DNA of 64,000 nucleotides, taken from NCBI GenBank assembly GCA_019057865.1, contig JAHLWP010000010.1, positions 1 to 64,000 of the forward strand, in the 5' to 3' direction. Origin of the DNA: Promethearchaeota archaeon. Its GTDB lineage: Archaea; Asgardarchaeota; Lokiarchaeia; Sigyniarchaeales; SOKP01. Position numbers and translations under genes: made by a program. Positions 3,600-64,000 of this stretch are shown piece after piece (position 1 is the stretch's first letter; every line of letters begins with the position of its first letter). The notes under the pieces were generated by a model, which did not search any database, was not told where the DNA came from, and was given only the letters and a program-made list of their open reading frames with translations.

Positions 3600-6092
3600 A
3601 TGAGTATTTTAAATTATCCACCTGATGAAATTATTAATCCTCCACTTTTAGAGAAGAAAAATTTTGAGCATATAATTCTCTGGATGTTGAACAATAACGA
3701 GGAATGTGAGTGGGCAGATTTTACAGCTGATCCAGTAAATATTAGTCTTTCTACATTATCAAATTATCTAAAAAGGTTAGAGAATAGTGGATATCTAGAG
3801 AGGATAAAAAGGGGTTCTTATTGTATCACACCTAGAGGTGAGGAGAGGTATAATGAGTTATCTAGAGCTAAGGACAAGAGAACTAAGTTAAGTTATCCTC
3901 CTAAAGCGATTACAGAAAGAAGGAATTATGATCACTGGATTCTTTGGATGGTTTACAATAACAATTCTTGCAAGTGGTCGGATTTCTTAGCAGAGCCCCT
4001 TTCTATAAACCAATCCTCTTTGTCAAAAAATTTGAATTTATTGATGGAGAGTGGATTAGTAAGGAAAGAGAATAAAGAGTATAAAATTACACAAGAAGGG
4101 AAATCAGAATATTCTAATATGCTAAGGTTTTATGATTTAGATAGACAATCAATTCTAAAGGAAGAAACCAAAAGGATTGAAGAGGTTACCAAGAAGACTA
4201 TTAGATTTTTTGAGAAATTTGATATTGAGAATGATTATGTGAAGTTTCGATTTCTAAACAATGTTTTAAAATTAGATTATAGTCGAGTTAAAGATTTATT
4301 AACAGAAGAAGAATTTGATAAAATATTGTTATATCTTTCTCTTAATCATCCAAATCAATATCCTCATTATATTTCATCTAAAGAGTTTTCTGATAAGTAT
4401 AACATTAAACAATCAACCCTTAACTTTTTCGTAGATAAAATCGTTGAAGAGGATTTTTACCCGGTAAAATTCTTCAAATTGGAAGATGAGGGTGATGAGG
4501 TTTATTATTTTCAAGGTAATGAGAAATTAGAAAAAGTTCTTCGTGCGATAACAGAAGATCACATTACCAAGTTTACATATTTAAACAAATTATACAATAA
4601 GTTCATAAATGGGACTCCATCATTAGATATGGATTCTACCGTAGAGGCAATATTAGAAGAAATTTGTGATAGTCTCTTTAATAAAGGGATGAAAGAGCCC
4701 TTAAGGAACTTCTTACCAACTTACATAAATTATTTGGCATATAAGATAGAAACTGAAAGAGAATTATTAGATACTTTTGACAAATTAGAAGGAGTTGCAT
4801 GGAGATATATTCCTGAACTTATATCTTATAGCTCTAAAGAAACTTCATTTGAGCCACCTGAATACAAGTATCATATAGACCCAAATATATTAAAGGTTTT
4901 AAACCTCTTTTCTTCACCTAAAATTAAAGAAATTTATGAGGGTGCTAAAGCCTTAATGAAAAAAAAGAATCACGATGATGCTTTAGAAAAAATAAATAGT
5001 TCTATTAAGCAGGATCCAGAAAACTTAGATTTGTATTTTTTAAAAGCGATTATTCTAAGTTTATTAAACCGACATCAAGAAGCGATAAATTTTTTAAAAG
5101 AAGAGGTGAAAATGAATATTGAAGACCAAGATGAGCATTCTTTTATTTCTTATCATTTTGTTTTGATTTTCTGTTATTTAACATTTGGGAAGTTTGATAA
5201 AGCGCAAAAATTTAGTGATAGCATAGAAAAAGTATTTCCTGAACATCCAGCGTCCTATATAACAAAAGCATTAGTATTAGGTTATAAAGTTATTTATGAA
5301 TTAGATCTTGAAGAATCCAAAAGTGGCGATGTCTTATTTGAAATTGAAAAAGCTATTGATTTAGACCCTAAACAATCAAATAAAGCCAAGTATAATCAAT
5401 TTAAATGTCTAGTTTTAAAACAGTTAAAAAAATTTGATGAAGCGCTTGAAGCAATTAATAAAGCTATTGATCTAGATTCTGGGGATGTTAAATTTTATTT
5501 CCTTAAATATAAGATTTTACATTATAATGAAAAAATTGACGAAGCTTTAGAATTTTTAGAAACCGCAATTAAAAATTTTCCAGAACAGGAAATAGAACTT
5601 TTAGCAAGTAAAGCATATCTTTATAAAAAATCGAAGAATTATGATGAAGCATTAAGAATTATTGATGATTTAAGAGAAAAATATCCTGATGATCTTGACA
5701 TTCTTAATAAAAAACTCTATTTCCATTTATATAAGGGTGATAAAAAAGAAGCAATAGAAGCAGGCAAGTTATTAACAGAATTAGACCCTAGCGATGGTAA
5801 TTATCATGATTCATACGCAGAAATTTTAACAGAGTTTGGGGAATATGAGCTTGCAATTAAAGAAATTACACTGGCACTAGAACTTGAACCATATGGTTGG
5901 TTTTCTTATAATACATATATCAATTTAGCTAAATGCTACAAAGCAATTGGTGAATATGATTTAGCAATAGAAAGTATCGAAAAAGGTAAAATCGCTAGCC
6001 ACACATGTTACTGTGATATTGAAATGAGAAAACATATCGAAAAAGAAGCAGAGAAAATGTATGCTGAGATTAATGAATTGAAGACTAAATAG
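3600..6092 (+). CDS. Tandem winged-HTH plus TPR-repeat protein
   Basis: Two N-terminal wHTH-like repeats (ILWM..NN..C.W.DF...P..I..S.LS..L..L...G...Y.IT..G), followed by TPR helices. Confidence 0.85.
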   Translation: MSILNYPPDEIINPPLLEKKNFEHIILWMLNNNEECEWADFTADPVNISLSTLSNYLKRLENSGYLERIKRGSYCITPRGEERYNELSRAKDKRTKLSYPPKAITERRNYDHWILWMVYNNNSCKWSDFLAEPLSINQSSLSKNLNLLMESGLVRKENKEYKITQEGKSEYSNMLRFYDLDRQSILKEETKRIEEVTKKTIRFFEKFDIENDYVKFRFLNNVLKLDYSRVKDLLTEEEFDKILLYLSLNHPNQYPHYISSKEFSDKYNIKQSTLNFFVDKIVEEDFYPVKFFKLEDEGDEVYYFQGNEKLEKVLRAITEDHITKFTYLNKLYNKFINGTPSLDMDSTVEAILEEICDSLFNKGMKEPLRNFLPTYINYLAYKIETERELLDTFDKLEGVAWRYIPELISYSSKETSFEPPEYKYHIDPNILKVLNLFSSPKIKEIYEGAKALMKKKNHDDALEKINSSIKQDPENLDLYFLKAIILSLLNRHQEAINFLKEEVKMNIEDQDEHSFISYHFVLIFCYLTFGKFDKAQKFSDSIEKVFPEHPASYITKALVLGYKVIYELDLEESKSGDVLFEIEKAIDLDPKQSNKAKYNQFKCLVLKQLKKFDEALEAINKAIDLDSGDVKFYFLKYKILHYNEKIDEALEFLETAIKNFPEQEIELLASKAYLYKKSKNYDEALRIIDDLREKYPDDLDILNKKLYFHLYKGDKKEAIEAGKLLTELDPSDGNYHDSYAEILTEFGEYELAIKEITLALELEPYGWFSYNTYINLAKCYKAIGEYDLAIESIEKGKIASHTCYCDIEMRKHIEKEAEKMYAEINELKTK

Positions 6093-6216
6093 GATGACAA
6101 AGAAATTTGGTAATCTATGATACGTTATAAGGATGTCGAATAAGTGAAAATTTACAATCCAAACTTTATTTATAAAATTTTGTTTTAATAAAATGATATT
6201 AAGGATTAGAAAATAA

Positions 6217-30071: not shown

Positions 30072-31565
30072 TCATATTTCTAATCTCAATTTGATTACTT
30101 CAGATATTTTTGAAATATCTACTCTTATTTGATCCATTGTATCCCTGTCTCTAATAGTCACTGAGTTATCATCTAAGGATTCATAATCAATTGTAATACA
30201 ATATGGAGTACCTAATTCATCTTGTCTTCTATATCTTTTACCAATTGAACCTGCAGAATCGAAAAATGAGCCTATACGATTTTCTAATAATTCTCTATGG
30301 ATTTTAATGGCTAGATCTCTTATATTCTCCTTATTTCTCACAAGAGGAAATACAGCTACGGTATTTGGTGCTAATTGTGGGTCTAATTTTAAAAGTATTC
30401 TGCCTTCTTCTACATTAAAAGCGTTTTCAAGCAGAGTATATATAATCCTATCTATACCAAAAGCAATTTCAAGGACTTGCGGAATTTCTTTAATTTTAGG
30501 ATCAGATCCCATACTTACCTCAAAATTTTGTTTCGAAAATTCAGAATGCCTTCTTAAATCATAATCAGTTCTATCATGTATTCCACATATCTCAACCCAC
30601 CCAAATTGTTTTGTTTCAATTTCTAAATCCCAAGCATCGTCAGCATAGTGGGCTCTCTCATTAATAGAATGCTGTCTAAATCTAATTACTTGTTCTGGAA
30701 TGCCTAATATTTTAGTTAAATAATAGCTTACATAAAGACAATAAGCATAAGCAGGTTTTTTGAGAAGTCCTTTTTTAATTGCATTCTCAAGGGAAATTAA
30801 TTGTGGTTTATCAAGGTTTTTTTCTTGGAGCTTCCAATCCAATAGCGGAAGTTTATTGGTTTTAATTTCCTCATAATCTTCAAAATCCATTTCTTGTTGT
30901 TTACTTATAAATAACTGCAGTTCAAACTGATCAAAAGCTCTCATTCGGAGGACTCCTTGTCTTGGAGATATCTCATTTCGATAAACTTTACCAAATTGAT
31001 AAACTTTTATTGGATACTGTCGCCTTGCATCTTGATCTAAACGATTGAATAATAAATAAGTTGTAGTTGCTGTTTCTGGACGTAAATACGCATCTACATT
31101 ATTTCCTACTTGGGTCTTCAACATTAAATTATAACTTTCTATTTTATCAAATGGGGTTCCACATTTTGGGCATGTAAGATTATGCTGCTCTATTAATTTT
31201 TCCATTTCTTCATTGGATAATCCATCAATCATCAGATCTGGCAATTTCTCTTGAAGGAATTTATCCACTCTATATAATGACTCACATTTAGAACACCTTA
31301 TAACAGGATCAATAAATCTCTCCAGATGACCTGAGGCTTCCCAAACTATACTTGGCATAATATGGGGGCACTCAACCTCTCCAAATCCAAAATATCGCAA
31401 TTCTTTCCTAAATAGAGAGAGAATATTATTTTTAAGTTCCATTCCGGCTGGTCCATATGAATAAAATCCAGCTAATCCACCATAAATCTCTGGTGAAGGG
31501 CCCCATATAAAGCCACGCCGCTTAATCAATGAATTAAAGGTCTCAATGTTATCCTCAATCTTCAT
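30072..31565 (-). CDS. glyS: Glycyl-tRNA synthetase (archaeal/eukaryotic alpha2 type)
   Basis: EIYGG, YLRPETA, YRNEISPRQG, ERAHYA, IGKRYRRQDELGTPY. Confidence 0.97.
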   Translation of the reverse strand: MKIEDNIETFNSLIKRRGFIWGPSPEIYGGLAGFYSYGPAGMELKNNILSLFRKELRYFGFGEVECPHIMPSIVWEASGHLERFIDPVIRCSKCESLYRVDKFLQEKLPDLMIDGLSNEEMEKLIEQHNLTCPKCGTPFDKIESYNLMLKTQVGNNVDAYLRPETATTTYLLFNRLDQDARRQYPIKVYQFGKVYRNEISPRQGVLRMRAFDQFELQLFISKQQEMDFEDYEEIKTNKLPLLDWKLQEKNLDKPQLISLENAIKKGLLKKPAYAYCLYVSYYLTKILGIPEQVIRFRQHSINERAHYADDAWDLEIETKQFGWVEICGIHDRTDYDLRRHSEFSKQNFEVSMGSDPKIKEIPQVLEIAFGIDRIIYTLLENAFNVEEGRILLKLDPQLAPNTVAVFPLVRNKENIRDLAIKIHRELLENRIGSFFDSAGSIGKRYRRQDELGTPYCITIDYESLDDNSVTIRDRDTMDQIRVDISKISEVIKLRLEI

Positions 31566-35864: not shown

Positions 35865-37316
35865 TTAATCATCATAACTAAATTTTGGTTCAGATATAGA
35901 ATTAATTTTCTCATTTACTATATTCTCATTATAATCATCCTGAAGCTCTTTATAATAGTTTTTTGCTCTTTGTAAATTAACTAAAGCTAACTCAATCTCT
36001 CCTTTTTTTATAGCAATATCTCCTAAAGTTTGAAAAATATCTGCGCATTCTTTAAAATATTCTAAAGCTTCAAAAATCTCTAATGCGCTTTCAAAATTTT
36101 TAATTGCTTCTGAATTATTGTCAAGAAAATCTAAATATAATTGAGCTATAGCTGTTTTTAAATCAGCAATCTTAGATTTATCACCATATTTATCATAAAT
36201 TTCAATAGAATAATTATAATATTCAATTGATTTAAGATACTCCTCTTTTAATACATATAATTTTGCAAGATTTTCCAAAATTATCCCTTCTTTAATATCT
36301 TCTGCGATTTCGAAAATTCTAACTGCTTCAAGACTTTTTAATAATAAACTTTCGGCTTCGAAAGTGTTTTTCCTTAAAAGATGTAATTTTCCAAGATAAA
36401 GAAAACATTCCCACTCAAGTTTTGCTTTAATAAAAATTGAACCCTTATCTTCTATTCTATTTATTAAGCCTAATGCATTATTTAAACTTTGAAAGGCTCG
36501 ATCATAATCTTCTCCTAGAATATAGTAAAATTTTCCATATTTAATATGAGTTTGAATCATCCCATAGATATCTTCTCTTTCTTTAAAAAATTTAGAATTT
36601 CTTGATAAAATTTTTTTAATTCTCTCTGCATCCTTTAACATCAAAAGGACTTCAACTAAATTACTGGCTGATTTTATCTCTTCAGTGATTAGATCGTTTT
36701 GCTCTGAAAGATTAAGCGCTTCCTGGTAATATTTATAAGAATGTTCCAAATCGTTAATTAAATAATATATATTTCCTAAATTGTTTAAAGTTTTGATAGC
36801 CTTTTTATATTCATTTATCTCTTTAAGAATTTCTAAAGCTCTATTAAAATGATAAATGGCTTGATCAAAAAATCCAAGATCTTCTTGAATTATCCCAATT
36901 TCATTATAGCAAATAGCCTCATTGAGTAAATCCTTTTCTTCTTTAAAATTTTCTGAAGCCAATTCAAGATTTTTTAGGGCACTAGGCAAATCTCTTTTTT
37001 TATAATATAGACTAGATTTTTCTAATAATAAAGAACCTGGTATAGGATCTCCCATAGCTTCTTTCTCTTTTAATATTTCATTAACTTTCTGAATCTTTCG
37101 CTCAATTTCCTCATCGTTAATAATGATATTGTCATAATATTTATAAGATTCTTCTAGCTCTTCTAAATCAGAACTAGAGTGCAACGGTTCAATATAAGGA
37201 TGTTTTAAACTTCTGCTTAAATCATTTTCGATATTGGTGATTAATGGCTTATTACAATTATGACAATATTTCCAATGATCCTCAATATATTTTTTACAAT
37301 AAGGGCAAGTTCTCAT
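35865..37316 (-). CDS. Zinc-ribbon plus TPR protein
   Basis: N-terminal CPYC...CHNC, then TPR repeats. Confidence 0.88.
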   Translation of the reverse strand: MRTCPYCKKYIEDHWKYCHNCNKPLITNIENDLSRSLKHPYIEPLHSSSDLEELEESYKYYDNIIINDEEIERKIQKVNEILKEKEAMGDPIPGSLLLEKSSLYYKKRDLPSALKNLELASENFKEEKDLLNEAICYNEIGIIQEDLGFFDQAIYHFNRALEILKEINEYKKAIKTLNNLGNIYYLINDLEHSYKYYQEALNLSEQNDLITEEIKSASNLVEVLLMLKDAERIKKILSRNSKFFKEREDIYGMIQTHIKYGKFYYILGEDYDRAFQSLNNALGLINRIEDKGSIFIKAKLEWECFLYLGKLHLLRKNTFEAESLLLKSLEAVRIFEIAEDIKEGIILENLAKLYVLKEEYLKSIEYYNYSIEIYDKYGDKSKIADLKTAIAQLYLDFLDNNSEAIKNFESALEIFEALEYFKECADIFQTLGDIAIKKGEIELALVNLQRAKNYYKELQDDYNENIVNEKINSISEPKFSYDD

Positions 37317-62619: not shown

Positions 62620-63114
62620 TTACTTCCCTCCTTCATATTCAGGTTTATTAATCCAGTTTTCATATTCATCTTCTGGAACAAAGAAGAAATCTGTCATTTT
62701 CCCTTCTCTTACTTTGTTAAAAACAGCTCTAACTCTTCTTCCTTTTTTAATCTTAGAAGGAACTAAATTTTCTGAAAAAATTCCTTGAAGTAATGCGGTT
62801 TCTGCTCCATCTAATTTTATAAAGCCTATACTATAAGGTACGGCTTTTATAAATGCAGAAGTTGTATACCATACAATTGTGCTAACTTCTATAGTTCCTG
62901 TTTGGTTCAATTCTACCCATTTAGCAGGAGCAAAACAATCAGAGCAATTGATCCTTGGAGGCATCCATGTCTTTCCACATTTAGTACATTTTGTGCCCAA
63001 TAGTTTTTTATTTTTCATTAATTCTAAAAAGAATTTGGATTGTCCTCCCATTGTGTATTTGTAGTTGATCCTTATTACATCTCTTATTTGATGCTCCTGA
63101 AATTCTTCGCTCAT
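62620..63114 (-). CDS. DUF35 Zn-ribbon/OB-fold protein
   Basis: CTKCGKTWMPPRINCSDC; ATGA overlap with the upstream thiolase. Confidence 0.9.
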   Translation of the reverse strand: MSEEFQEHQIRDVIRINYKYTMGGQSKFFLELMKNKKLLGTKCTKCGKTWMPPRINCSDCFAPAKWVELNQTGTIEVSTIVWYTTSAFIKAVPYSIGFIKLDGAETALLQGIFSENLVPSKIKKGRRVRAVFNKVREGKMTDFFFVPEDEYENWINKPEYEGGK

Positions 63115-64000
63115 GGTTTTTTCAACCCCTCCTCATTTGTCATTACTATAACCGCAGCATATGCCGCTCCAGGGCCTCCTATTGAGTGAGCAATAGCTCT
63201 GCCATTTTCAATTGTTTTTATTTGATGCTTTCCAGCATCCTCTCTAAGCTGAAGTGCTGCTTCACCTGTAGACATTATCCCGGTAGCACCAACAGCATGA
63301 CCACATCCAATTAATCCACCGCAAGGGCAACATGGTAATTCACCATCTAACCATGGCCCCTCCCCTGGTTTTTCAAAGGATTTTTCAATCCATGGACCAC
63401 CTTCCCCAAAAGGAACAAACCCAAGCTCCTCATAAGAGATGACTTCTTATCCAGAGAATATCGAACTGATATTCATTGTCCTGAGAAGGCATCATGGAGC
63501 TCTGCTAAATCAATTTGTTCCTTTATTTTATTATAGTCTAAGCCTGCCATCTTATACGCGGCTTTTGCAGCAAAAATATTTGAATATAACCTTCCCATAT
63601 CTTCTCTATTTCCTATAAAACAATCGGTATTTGCTGCTGCGACACCAGTAATCCAAATCGGCTTTTCAATTTTTAATTCTCTTACTTTTTCTTCACTTGC
63701 GAGAATTAATGCTGCTGATGCTTCTGAATATAAACAACAATCAAGCATCTTGAAGGGATGACAAATTATCCTTGAGTATAGGACATCATCTAAGGAAATT
63801 TTCATAGGGGATTGTGCTTTTGGATTGAGCATAGCATTCCCATGGTTTTTTACGCTAACTTTAGCCAATTTTAACTAATTGTTAAGATTTAAAGCCATTT
63901 GTTCTTCGGTAGGATTACCGAATTCTTCATAATGGGCGTTTACCATAGAAACGTACGAGGTTGCTGCCATCATTCCCATAGGATATTTACGAAATATGTA
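63111..64000 (-). CDS. Thiolase-domain protein (5' end outside window) split by candidate BHB introns
   Basis: Removing 63861-63890 and 63449-63477 gives a continuous frame ...EEQMALVSVKNHGNA...DCCLYSE...ELHDAFSGQEVISYEELGF...GGLIGCGHAVGATG...AHSIGG...KKP*. Confidence 0.88.
63449..63477 (-). other. Candidate 29-nt BHB intron in thiolase mRNA
   Basis: Exon helix GAUG-c-CUUCU/AGAAG-u-CAUC, central helix CAGG/CUGG (one A.G mismatch), bulges AC|A and AU|A, intron hairpin GAAUAUC-AGUUC-GAUAUUC. Confidence 0.75.
63861..63890 (-). other. Candidate 30-nt BHB intron in thiolase mRNA
   Basis: Exon helix AAU/GUU, central helix GGCU/GGCU, bulges UU|A and AA|A, intron hairpin AAUcUUAAC-AAUUA-GUUAAaAUU; contains an in-frame UAG. 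Confidence 0.8.

What the first reader, a model, noticed from the sequence alone, without database searches (positions are those of the whole stretch)
63449..63477. Intron B: 29-nt frameshifting insert next to the ELHDAF motif, with a strong exon-exon helix
Sense RNA reads GAUGCCUUCU CAGG AC|A AU GAAUAUC AGUUC GAUAUUC U CUGG AU|A AGAAGUCAUC. The exon helix pairs 9/10 bp and the intron hairpin is a perfect 7 bp. The central helix has one A.G mismatch, or can slip to a perfect CAGG/UCUG with larger bulges (relaxed BHB/BHL). Only three 29-nt excisions avoid a stop codon, and the BHB-predicted cut is one of them, giving HDAFSGQEVISYE with consensus thiolase spacing. A non-canonical central helix suggests a broad-specificity endonuclease or regulated splicing (inference).
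Basis: partly seen in the sequence, partly recalled or inferred. Interest (0 to 1): 0.88.

Follow-up and report, generated by a model that had tools for sequence, protein, structure and literature searches.

The report
Tiny tRNA-type intron in thiolase gene
A 29-base insert that breaks the reading frame of a thiolase gene in a Lokiarchaeial (Asgard) archaeon is most likely a tiny intron cut out of the mRNA by the tRNA-splicing enzymes. It is one of at least fifteen such inserts in this genome's protein genes, but no RNA data yet show the splicing.

Summary
The 29-nt insert at 63449-63477 (minus strand) is real. It lies in a thiolase gene of a Promethearchaeota (Lokiarchaeia) MAG.

- **Comparative evidence.** All 16 same-genus orthologues fetched, and 164 of 184 loci compared, have no insert at this site. 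They read ELHDAFSGQEVISYE, exactly the product predicted after removal.
- **Independent DNA.** Contigs from two other sources carry the same insert.
- **A class of inserts.** A census against 84% of a complete same-genus genome found 15 micro-inserts in 11 genes of this genome: 13 of 28-34 nt, one of 44 and one of 65. Host genes include RNA polymerase A', LeuRS, and aIF2-gamma, whose eIF2_C domain matches only once.
- **Geometry.** Twelve of the 15 have a fully paired 4-bp helix between two 3-nt bulges at the frame-restoring register. Across thiolase alleles the figure is 33 of 38, against 0 of 38 for mirror geometry.
- **Machinery.** The genome has a crenarchaeal-type EndA alpha subunit that keeps the loop Lys/Arg, a beta-like paralogue, and RtcB.
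- **This insert is a relaxed member.** Its central helix pairs 3 of 4 (A.G mismatch). The canonical fold is 5.6 kcal/mol above the MFE.
- **Hot spot.** Other lineages carry different 30-nt introns at the same position or 7 nt upstream.

No RNA run was available. The scan has reported similar mRNA introns in other archaeal genomes.

The parts
63449..63477 (-). 29-nt insert (candidate intron B, or intron 3 of the gene). It carries an in-frame UGA two nt in and shifts the frame.
   Evidence: It is absent from the 16 same-genus orthologues. Removal gives HDAFSGQEVISYE.
63484..63493 (-). 5' strand of the exon-exon helix h (GAUGCCUUCU, codons D-A-F-S)
   Evidence: Pairs 9/10 with 63438-63447. Present in the MFE fold.
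63480..63483 (-). 5' strand of the central helix H (CAGG, exon side)
   Evidence: Pairs C-G, A.G, G.U, G-C with 63451-63454.
63477..63479 (-). 5' bulge ACA. The predicted cut lies between 63478 and 63477.
   Evidence: The cut after the 2nd bulge nucleotide reproduces the orthologue junction.
63456..63474 (-). Intron hairpin h': GAAUAUC / loop AGUUC / GAUAUUC
   Evidence: Perfect 7 bp. It matches the hairpin of the -7-site intron family at 15 of 17 positions (4 of 20,000 shuffles reached this).
63451..63454 (-). 3' strand of the central helix H (CUGG, intron side)
63448..63450 (-). 3' bulge AUA. The predicted cut lies between 63449 and 63448.
63438..63447 (-). 3' strand of the exon-exon helix h (AGAAGUCAUC, codons Q-E-V-I)
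63478..63860 (-). Thiolase exon 3 (ends ...ELHDAFSG + C of the Gln codon)
   Evidence: It is 85-91% identical to the uninterrupted orthologues.
63111..63448 (-). Thiolase exon 4 including the stop codon. The stop overlaps the ATG of the downstream gene.
   Evidence: Pfam Thiolase_C_1, E 5e-15.
63861..63890 (-). 30-nt insert A of the same gene, with an in-frame UAG. H is GGCU/GGCU, 4/4.
   Evidence: The same site is occupied in other lineages by different sequences.
63986..64000 (-). Window part of the 31-nt insert 1 (C7:63986-64016). H is UACG/CGUA, 4/4.
   Evidence: A contig of run X5 lacks these 31 nt net.
62620..63114 (-). Downstream DUF35/ChsH2-type zinc-ribbon plus OB-fold gene. Its ATG overlaps the thiolase stop codon (ATGA).
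   Evidence: Pfam OB_ChsH2_C and zf-ChsH2.

Best explanation
The 29 nt are a bulge-helix-bulge-type (tRNA-type) micro-intron in the pre-mRNA of a thiolase gene of a Lokiarchaeial archaeon.

**Proposed mechanism (inferred)**
- After transcription, exon codons D-A-F-S pair with Q-E-V-I to form a 9/10-bp helix.
- The last exon bases CAGG pair imperfectly with the intron's CUGG.
- The intron's own 7-bp hairpin closes the other side.
- This presents ACA and AUA as bulges on opposite strands.
- The heteromeric splicing endonuclease (catalytic alpha plus beta-like subunit) cuts after the second nucleotide of each bulge.
- RtcB joins the exons, giving ...GGAC|AAGAAG... = HDAFSGQEVISYE.

**Shown**
- The insert exists, with the orthologue-defined junction.
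- It belongs to a class of 28-35-nt inserts with BHB geometry, several in essential genes.
- The enzymes are encoded in the genome.

**Inferred**
- The cleavage and ligation themselves.
- That the enzyme tolerates the A.G mismatch. The loop-bearing alpha subunit and the long exon helix make this plausible.
For: **1. Precise junction.** The 16 same-genus orthologues fetched have open frames of 282-435 aa through this site, all but one of 363 aa or more, and lack exactly these 29 nt. Their protein equals the predicted spliced product. Only the three equivalent 29-nt excisions keep the frame open.

**2. Not an assembly error.**
- An ENA contig (L104) carries the identical insert. Its exons are 91.8% identical to this genome's.
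- A contig of run X8, from another study, matches across the whole insert.
- A roughly 90%-identical contig of run X6 covers it without gaps, with only 23 letters on one side.

**3. A class of inserts in this genome.** tblastn of ORFs from 2.8 Mb of a complete congener found 15 micro-inserts in 11 genes: 13 of 28-34 nt, one of 44 and one of 65.
- Twelve of the 15 have a 4/4 central helix with 3-nt bulges at the frame-restoring register.
- The composition-based binomial probability of this is about 1e-11.

**4. The same class across thiolase alleles.** In 184 thiolase loci, inserts of 29-35 nt recur at six positions.
- True BHB geometry gives 4/4 in 33 of 38 distinct alleles.
- Mirror geometry gives 0 of 38, and displaced registers 0-7 of 38.

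**5. Essential hosts.**
- The aIF2-gamma gene, whose eIF2_C domain matches only once in this genome, is split inside GHVDHG|KTT in this genome and three congeners.
- RNA polymerase A' and LeuRS are also interrupted.

**6. Selection on structure in sister introns.**
- At site 373, three pairs show compensatory double changes and H is 100% paired.
- The two -7-site alleles L107 and L108 differ by double changes that keep the hairpin.

**7. Machinery.**
- EndA alpha is closest to A. pernix 3P1Z_B (E 3e-35) and keeps the K-P-R of the specificity loop.
- A second paralogue lacks the catalytic His.
- RtcB is present.

**8. Exons under purifying selection.** dN/dS is 0.09 against L104 and 0.06-0.07 against intronless relatives, with no other lesion in the gene.

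**9. Other 3/4 helices in this genus.** They occur in this genome in RNA polymerase A' (3/4 in the only register tested) and in the aIF2-gamma introns of three congeners (read by eye).
Against: - No RNA evidence of any kind.
- This allele is one of the few with a mismatched central helix, and the mismatch is internal (A.G).
- The canonical register is 5.6 kcal/mol above the MFE, with about 2% pair probability. The better slipped register would put the 3' cut one nucleotide off if the enzyme counted from the central helix. That would remove 30 nt and break the frame.
- The genome has about nine thiolase-like matches, so this copy could be dispensable.
- The G000-type allele was found in only two assemblies, plus partial contigs.
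- A 173-nt tract around the intron is identical between the two assemblies. The low dN/dS may therefore largely predate acquisition of the intron.
Confidence: 0.7

Rival explanations
1. The insert is not removed. In this lineage the thiolase copy is a recent pseudogene, or yields truncated products. The insert would be an intron-like element that has lost splice competence through the TCU-to-TCA change in the exon strand of the central helix.
For: - The central helix is only 3/4, and the canonical fold is disfavoured.
- All other alleles at this site have CUGG/CCAG, 4/4.
- Several thiolase paralogues exist in the genome.
- The identical tract around the intron suggests recent acquisition, so there has been little time for decay to show.
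Against: - The gene carries three such inserts and no other lesion. The other two have perfect BHB motifs.
- The exons remain under strong constraint.
- The same allele persists in a lineage with about 8% exon divergence.
- 3/4 helices also occur in introns of RNA polymerase A' and aIF2-gamma, genes that cannot be pseudogenes.
- The stop codon still overlaps the downstream ATG.
Confidence: 0.17
2. The ribosome bypasses the 29 nt (translational hopping, as in phage T4 gene 60 or the mitochondrial 'byp' elements). Take-off would be at CAA before the UGA stop, with landing 29 nt downstream.
For: - A stop codon (UGA) directly follows the last decoded codon.
- A hairpin begins 1 nt later.
- A 12-nt imperfect direct repeat (UUCUCAGGACAA / UUCUCUGGAUAA) flanks the gap.
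Against: - The take-off and landing triplets differ (CAA against UAA).
- In other members of the class the matching triplets are also absent. The C82 insert splits a codon, and its best in-phase register gives GAU against AAU (my reading).
- The class-wide 4-bp helix with 3-nt bulges has no role in hopping, yet it is present in 12 of 15 and 33 of 38 cases.
Confidence: 0.03
3. The insert is an assembly or sequencing artefact, or a strain chimera.
For: The genome is a 87-contig MAG with 5% estimated contamination.
Against: - The source-sample contig covers the gene at uniform depth of about 219.
- The ENA contig L104 bridges the insert, and contigs of runs X8 and X6 match across it.
- Related inserts occur in dozens of unrelated assemblies.
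Confidence: 0.01

Closest known systems
cbf5 pre-mRNA intron of Crenarchaeota (Watanabe 2002; Yokobori 2009, PMC2738675)
   Same: - A short intron in a protein-coding sequence.
- Bulge-helix-bulge motif at the exon-intron boundaries.
- Removed by the tRNA-splicing endonuclease of the two-subunit type.
- Patchy gain and loss among relatives.
   Different: - A different host gene and phylum (Lokiarchaeia).
- Here the gene has three such inserts, and up to four in other alleles.
- The genome has at least 15 in 11 genes.
- This particular motif is relaxed (3/4 helix).
- Splicing is not shown experimentally here. As of 2020, cbf5 was the only coding-sequence case reported (PMC7714728).
Non-canonical tRNA introns of Thermoproteales and of Asgard archaea (PMC11291895; bioRxiv 10.64898/2026.10.13.758758)
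   Same: - The same predicted enzymes.
- Relaxed motifs tolerated.
- Many independent gains.
- Introns persist only where the exon context can form the motif.
   Different: [quoted passage not shown] Excision must be exact to the nucleotide to keep the frame. Those two papers describe tRNA genes only.
BHB intron in the 5' UTR of Haloferax HVO_1309 mRNA (PMC7714728)
   Same: EndA processing of an mRNA.
   Different: That intron lies in the untranslated leader. Here the coding frame itself depends on excision.
HAC1/XBP1 unconventional mRNA splicing (Ire1 plus tRNA ligase/RtcB)
   Same: - A small frame-shifting intron (26 nt in XBP1).
- Defined by stem-loops.
- Cut by a protein endonuclease and sealed by RtcB.
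- Independent of the spliceosome.
   Different: - A different nuclease (Ire1 kinase-RNase) and a different recognition motif (two 7-nt loops).
- Regulated by stress, whereas nothing here indicates regulation.
Translational bypass elements (T4 gene 60; mitochondrial byps)
   Same: A short insert of tens of nt with a hairpin and a stop codon directly after the last decoded codon.
   Different: There are no matching take-off and landing codons. The class shows BHB geometry, which bypassing does not need.

Membership tests
Archaeal BHB (EndA-spliced) intron, strict hBHBh' motif | A 4-bp fully paired central helix flanked by two 3-nt bulges on opposite strands | tested here: not met
   CAGG/CUGG gives C-G, A.G, G.U, G-C, which is 3/4. 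The two bulges are 3 nt each (ACA, AUA) in this register.
Archaeal BHB intron, relaxed motif (as cleaved by broad-specificity EndA) | BHB-like topology: at least one canonical bulge-helix unit, flanking helices h and h', and cuts after the 2nd bulge nucleotide | tested here: met
   - Exon helix 9/10 bp.
- Intron hairpin 7 bp, offset by A-U.
- The register with canonical cuts reproduces the orthologue junction.
- The perfect-helix slipped register has bulges of 5 and 4 nt.
Archaeal BHB intron | Excision restores a functional, orthologue-like sequence | tested here: met
   The spliced product ELHDAFSGQEVISYEELGF is identical to the orthologues over this stretch.
Archaeal BHB intron | Splicing endonuclease of a suitable type is encoded in the genome | tested here: met
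   There are two PF01974 genes. The alpha subunit resembles A. pernix/S. tokodaii alpha and keeps the K44/R46 equivalents. The second lacks the catalytic His (PMC3241643).
Archaeal BHB intron | RtcB-type ligase is encoded in the genome | tested here: met
   PF01139 match, E 1.7e-168.
Archaeal BHB intron | Spliced RNA junction and/or excised (circular) intron observed | not testable with these tools
   No RNA holder was listed. No protein spanning the junction with this lineage's own exons was found.
Archaeal BHB intron | Structure conserved through compensatory change among homologous introns | tested here: inconclusive
   The G000-type allele has no sequence variants (L104 is identical). Sister introns of the same gene do show compensatory changes.
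Translational bypass element | Matching take-off and landing codons | tested here: not met
   CAA against UAA at this insert. There is also no match at the C82 insert.
Decaying pseudogene | Relaxed constraint and unrelated lesions | tested here: not met
   dN/dS is 0.06-0.09. The only lesions are three inserts of 29-31 nt.

The most novel reading that the evidence does not exclude
Lokiarchaeia (Promethearchaeota) may run a genome-wide, endonuclease-and-ligase-dependent mRNA splicing system.

- Dozens of roughly 30-nt BHB introns sit in protein-coding genes. Hosts include RNA polymerase A', LeuRS, aIF2-gamma and eukaryote-signature genes (a Ras-like GTPase, Roadblock).
- There are up to four per gene.
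- They are gained repeatedly at 'proto-splice' sites where codons happen to be self-complementary.
- At the thiolase HDAF hot spot the same hairpin is used with splice sites 7 nt apart. This would mean intron sliding or re-insertion.
Probability: 0.6. Interest if true: 0.9.

Novelty: new variant of a known kind. Interest (0 to 1): 0.78.

Why it matters
In the literature I could search, tRNA-type splicing of a coding sequence in archaea is documented only for cbf5 of Crenarchaeota (PMC7714728, PMC2738675).

- If these inserts are spliced, the archaeal group closest to eukaryotes interrupts ordinary and essential protein genes with introns removed by protein enzymes.
- The system would show intron presence/absence polymorphism, recurrent insertion sites and several introns per gene.
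- That makes questions about how introns are gained, tolerated and positioned directly testable in a prokaryote.
- Gene callers currently split or discard such genes, so Asgard proteomes are mis-annotated at these loci.
- This particular intron is useful as a natural 'relaxed' substrate for measuring how much helix imperfection the Asgard endonuclease tolerates.

Tried and rejected
- **Naive genome-wide scan.** I looked for strict BHB plus ORF-joining. True geometry gave 953 hits and the mirror decoy 1021, so the scan was uninformative. Gene-boundary background dominates, the short exons fail the 50-codon flank rule, and none of the three thiolase inserts passed. I replaced it with the orthologue-based census.
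- **RNA evidence.** No RNA holder was listed.
- **Search for a spliced product or a near-identical intronless allele.** I searched with exon 4. The best hit (P0020/L302) is 94% identical to exon 4 in protein and is an intronless relative, not this lineage.
- **Homology between introns at different sites of the gene.** There was only a slight excess over shuffles (four pairs at 14/17, against about 1.3 expected). I do not claim it.
- **Rfam and ARAGORN on the window.** Nothing found.
- **Covariation at the finding's own site.** The exons are invariant, and the G000-type H differs from the L105-type by non-compensatory changes, so there is no support either way.
- **Rest of the congener genome.** The census therefore covers 84% of that genome.
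- **A Pfam call with a wrong frame.** It failed, and I repeated it without that item.

Full report
**What is there**

The window is the first 64 kb of contig C7 of a 4.26-Mb, 29% G+C, 87-contig genome. Record titles of orthologue-bearing genomes name Promethearchaeota/Promethearchaeia, that is Lokiarchaeia.

A thiolase gene runs on the minus strand from beyond the window edge down to 63111. Its stop codon overlaps the ATG of a DUF35/ChsH2-type gene. The frame is broken three times:
- by 31 nt (C7:63986-64016);
- by 30 nt (63861-63890, in-frame UAG);
- by the 29 nt of this finding (63449-63477), which puts UGA two nt after the junction and shifts the frame.

- The exon helix GAUGCCUUCU/AGAAGUCAUC pairs 9/10.
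- The hairpin GAAUAUC-AGUUC-GAUAUUC is perfect.
- CAGG/CUGG pairs 3/4.

RNAfold recovers the exon helix and the hairpin (z -2.5).

**The junction is fixed by orthologues**

A search of 30 relatives found the orthologue at 85-91% protein identity in 16 same-genus genomes. Open frames run through this site in all of them (all but one at least 363 aa), and none has the 29 nt. Their sequence, ELHDAFSGQEVISYEELGF, is what removal of 63449-63477 gives. Only three 29-nt excisions keep the frame open, and they are the same event, because AA follows both cuts.

**The insert is not an assembly artefact**
- The source-sample contig covers the gene at even depth.
- A roughly 90%-identical contig of run X6 covers it without gaps, with only 23 letters on one side.
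- An ENA contig (L104), whose exons are 91.8% identical, holds the identical insert.

**It belongs to a class**

I fetched 2.8 Mb (84%) of a complete genome of the same genus. I then searched its ORFs against this genome with tblastn. About 1,800 ORFs had a near-full-length match.

Disruptions fall into two groups. One is a few candidate 1-2-nt shifts. The other is 15 micro-inserts in 11 genes: 13 of 28-34 nt, one of 44 and one of 65.

Host genes, identified directly or through the congener's orthologue:
- thiolase (3 inserts);
- LeuRS (3 inserts);
- RNA polymerase subunit A';
- aIF2-gamma;
- acetyl-CoA synthetase;
- an NAD-dependent epimerase/dehydratase;
- an amidohydrolase;
- an acyl-CoA dehydrogenase;
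- a VWA-domain protein;
- a Roadblock/LC7 protein;
- a Ras-family GTPase.

The register is dictated by the orthologue protein. At that register, 12 of the 15 have a fully paired 4-bp helix flanked by two 3-nt, mostly A-rich bulges, in the archaeal BHB orientation. The composition-based chance of this is about 1e-11. For the C63 and third C49 inserts I threaded the helix by eye.

**The same class across thiolase alleles**

I compared 184 thiolase loci from genomes and metagenomes. Inserts of 29-35 nt (mode 30) recur at six positions, with up to four in one allele. I fixed the registers by requiring that every 5-mer across the junction occurs in an intronless orthologue.
- True BHB geometry is 4/4 in 33 of 38 distinct alleles and 3/4 in the other 5.
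- Mirror-image geometry is 4/4 in 0 of 38.
- Displaced registers are 4/4 in 0-7 of 38.

These alleles are related, so the counts are not independent. They do span six positions and several unrelated intron sequences.

Sister introns show compensatory change:
- At site 373, three pairs change on both sides and the central helix is paired in every allele.
- The two -7-site alleles L107 and L108 keep a 9-bp hairpin through three double changes.

**The inserts cannot simply be lesions**

The only eIF2_C match in this genome is the aIF2-gamma gene. That gene is split inside the G1 motif GHVDHG|KTT here and, at the same place, in three other species of the genus. Twenty-one other same-genus species searched have it intact. 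RNA polymerase A' is also interrupted.

The thiolase exons have no other defect. dN/dS is 0.06-0.09.

**Machinery**

The genome encodes two PF01974 proteins and RtcB.
- The 200-aa protein is closest to the catalytic alpha subunits of A. pernix, S. tokodaii and P. aerophilum. It aligns K-P-R with K44-P-R46 of the crenarchaeal specificity loop. That loop confers broad substrate range, and K44 is required for activity (PMC3241643).
- The 207-aa paralogue aligns with M. jannaschii EndA but has no His at the catalytic position, as expected for a structural beta subunit.

An (alpha-beta)2 enzyme is an inference from these sequences.

ARAGORN finds only 13-18 tRNA genes in this 99.7%-complete genome. 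That fits heavy tRNA interruption, as reported for other Asgard lineages (PMC11291895), but I did not follow it up.

**How this member differs**
- **Mismatched helix.** It is one of 3 of 15 in this genome, and 5 of 38 among thiolase alleles, with a 3/4 central helix. The mismatch is an internal A.G.
- **Energetics.** With nearest-neighbour energies the canonical register scores -10.4 kcal/mol against an MFE of -16.0. The slipped register CAGG/UCUG scores -14.7 and stacks on both flanking helices, but leaves bulges of 5 and 4 nt.
- **Risk from the slipped register.** If the enzyme counted two nucleotides from that slipped helix on the 3' side, it would remove 30 nt and break the frame. Correct splicing therefore needs one of two things. 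Either the enzyme imposes the mismatched register, or it measures the 3' cut from the outer helix.
- **Precedent.** RNA polymerase A' here (3/4 in the only register I tested) and the aIF2-gamma introns of three congeners (AUGG/ACAU, read by eye) also have 3/4 helices. This argues that one mismatch is tolerated.

**A hot spot**

Twenty of the 184 loci have an insert at this place, in three forms:
- the G000-type, 29 nt, at GGAC|AAG (this genome and L104 only);
- a 30-nt family at the same position with an unrelated sequence and a perfect CUGG/CCAG helix (seven variants, 14 loci);
- a 30-nt family 7 nt upstream, at UUUUAG|UGG, with UUUU/GAAA (four loci).

On a midpoint-rooted tree of the spliced coding sequences, the carriers are scattered among intronless alleles.

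The G000-type hairpin matches the -7-family hairpin at 15 of 17 positions (4 of 20,000 shuffles reached this). It does not match the family at its own position, which gives 10/17, the background level. The same hairpin therefore seems to be used with splice sites 7 nt apart.

The exon context is intrinsically self-complementary: intronless alleles average 7.35 of 10 pairs, and carriers at this position have 9. The site thus looks pre-adapted.

The two G000-type assemblies are identical over 173 nt around the intron, although they differ at about 10% of sites elsewhere. This could be co-conversion or selection. It also weakens the dN/dS argument for this allele.

**Rivals**
- **Unspliced pseudogene.** This remains possible for this copy, given the paralogues and the mismatch.
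- **Translational bypass.** The UGA after CAA and the nearby hairpin fit it. The differing take-off and landing triplets, and the rest of the class, do not.
- **Assembly error.** The independent contigs exclude it.

**What is known**

The searched library holds no report of BHB introns in Asgard protein-coding genes. A 2020 paper states that cbf5 was the only such case, besides a 5'-UTR intron in Haloferax (PMC7714728).

Earlier notes of this scan describe the same three thiolase inserts and other candidate mRNA introns in this genome. They also describe similar cases in other archaeal genomes. One of them reports an RNA-derived contig lacking the intron. I did not check that claim.

**Verdict**

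The most likely reading is a relaxed BHB micro-intron removed by EndA and RtcB (confidence 0.7). Splicing has not been observed.

Noticed in passing
G000 contig C63 ~36107-36128 (locus L277 ~1470-1500); same site in L285, L292, L294: The aIF2-gamma gene, the only eIF2_C match in this genome, carries a 29-nt insert inside the G1 motif GHVDHG|KTT. Three other species of the genus carry a different 30-nt insert at the same position. Twenty-one same-genus species searched are intact.
   Followed up: partly
G000 contigs C27 (~30412-30475, minus strand) and C49 (~5277-6128): RNA polymerase subunit A' has a 65-nt insert after GHFGH. LeuRS has three inserts (28, 34 and about 28 nt), two of them with perfect BHB helices and perfect inner hairpins. 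A second LeuRS-like match lies on C73.
   Followed up: partly
Thiolase orthologues L001-L017 and L104-L270: Micro-inserts recur at six positions of the same gene (about nt 26, 373, 437, 451, 535 and 908-916 of the coding sequence), with up to four in one allele (L109). L017, L182, L183 and L270 carry two inserts (34-35 and 31 nt) only about 16 nt apart.
   Followed up: partly
L001 against L104, coding positions 856-999 plus the intron: A 173-nt tract around the 29-nt insert, and the 30-nt insert A with its flanks, are identical between two lineages that differ at about 10% of sites elsewhere. This may be a co-conversion tract from intron transfer by recombination.
   Followed up: no
Whole genome G000: ARAGORN detects only 13 tRNA genes (18 when anticodon-loop introns are allowed) in a genome rated 99.7% complete. 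This suggests that most tRNA genes are interrupted at non-canonical positions.
   Followed up: no
L001 positions 2007-2043 (C7:63985-64021) in run X5: A contig from a 2015 marine-sediment run skips 35 nt with 4 other letters in between (net -31). This is a close relative lacking insert 1, so presence/absence varies among close strains.
   Followed up: no
G000 contigs C40, C5, C28, C53, C41, C30, C52, C57: The census also listed about ten candidate 1-2-nt frame shifts relative to the congener (extra = -1 or -2). They could be real frameshifts, sequencing errors or alignment edge effects.
   Followed up: no
L302 (JGI contig Ga0310067_1135332): The thiolase allele closest to exon 4 in the protein search (94%) is intronless but lacks about 90 nt (30 codons) between CCLYS and ANTDCF. 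This is either a deletion or an assembly fault.
   Followed up: no
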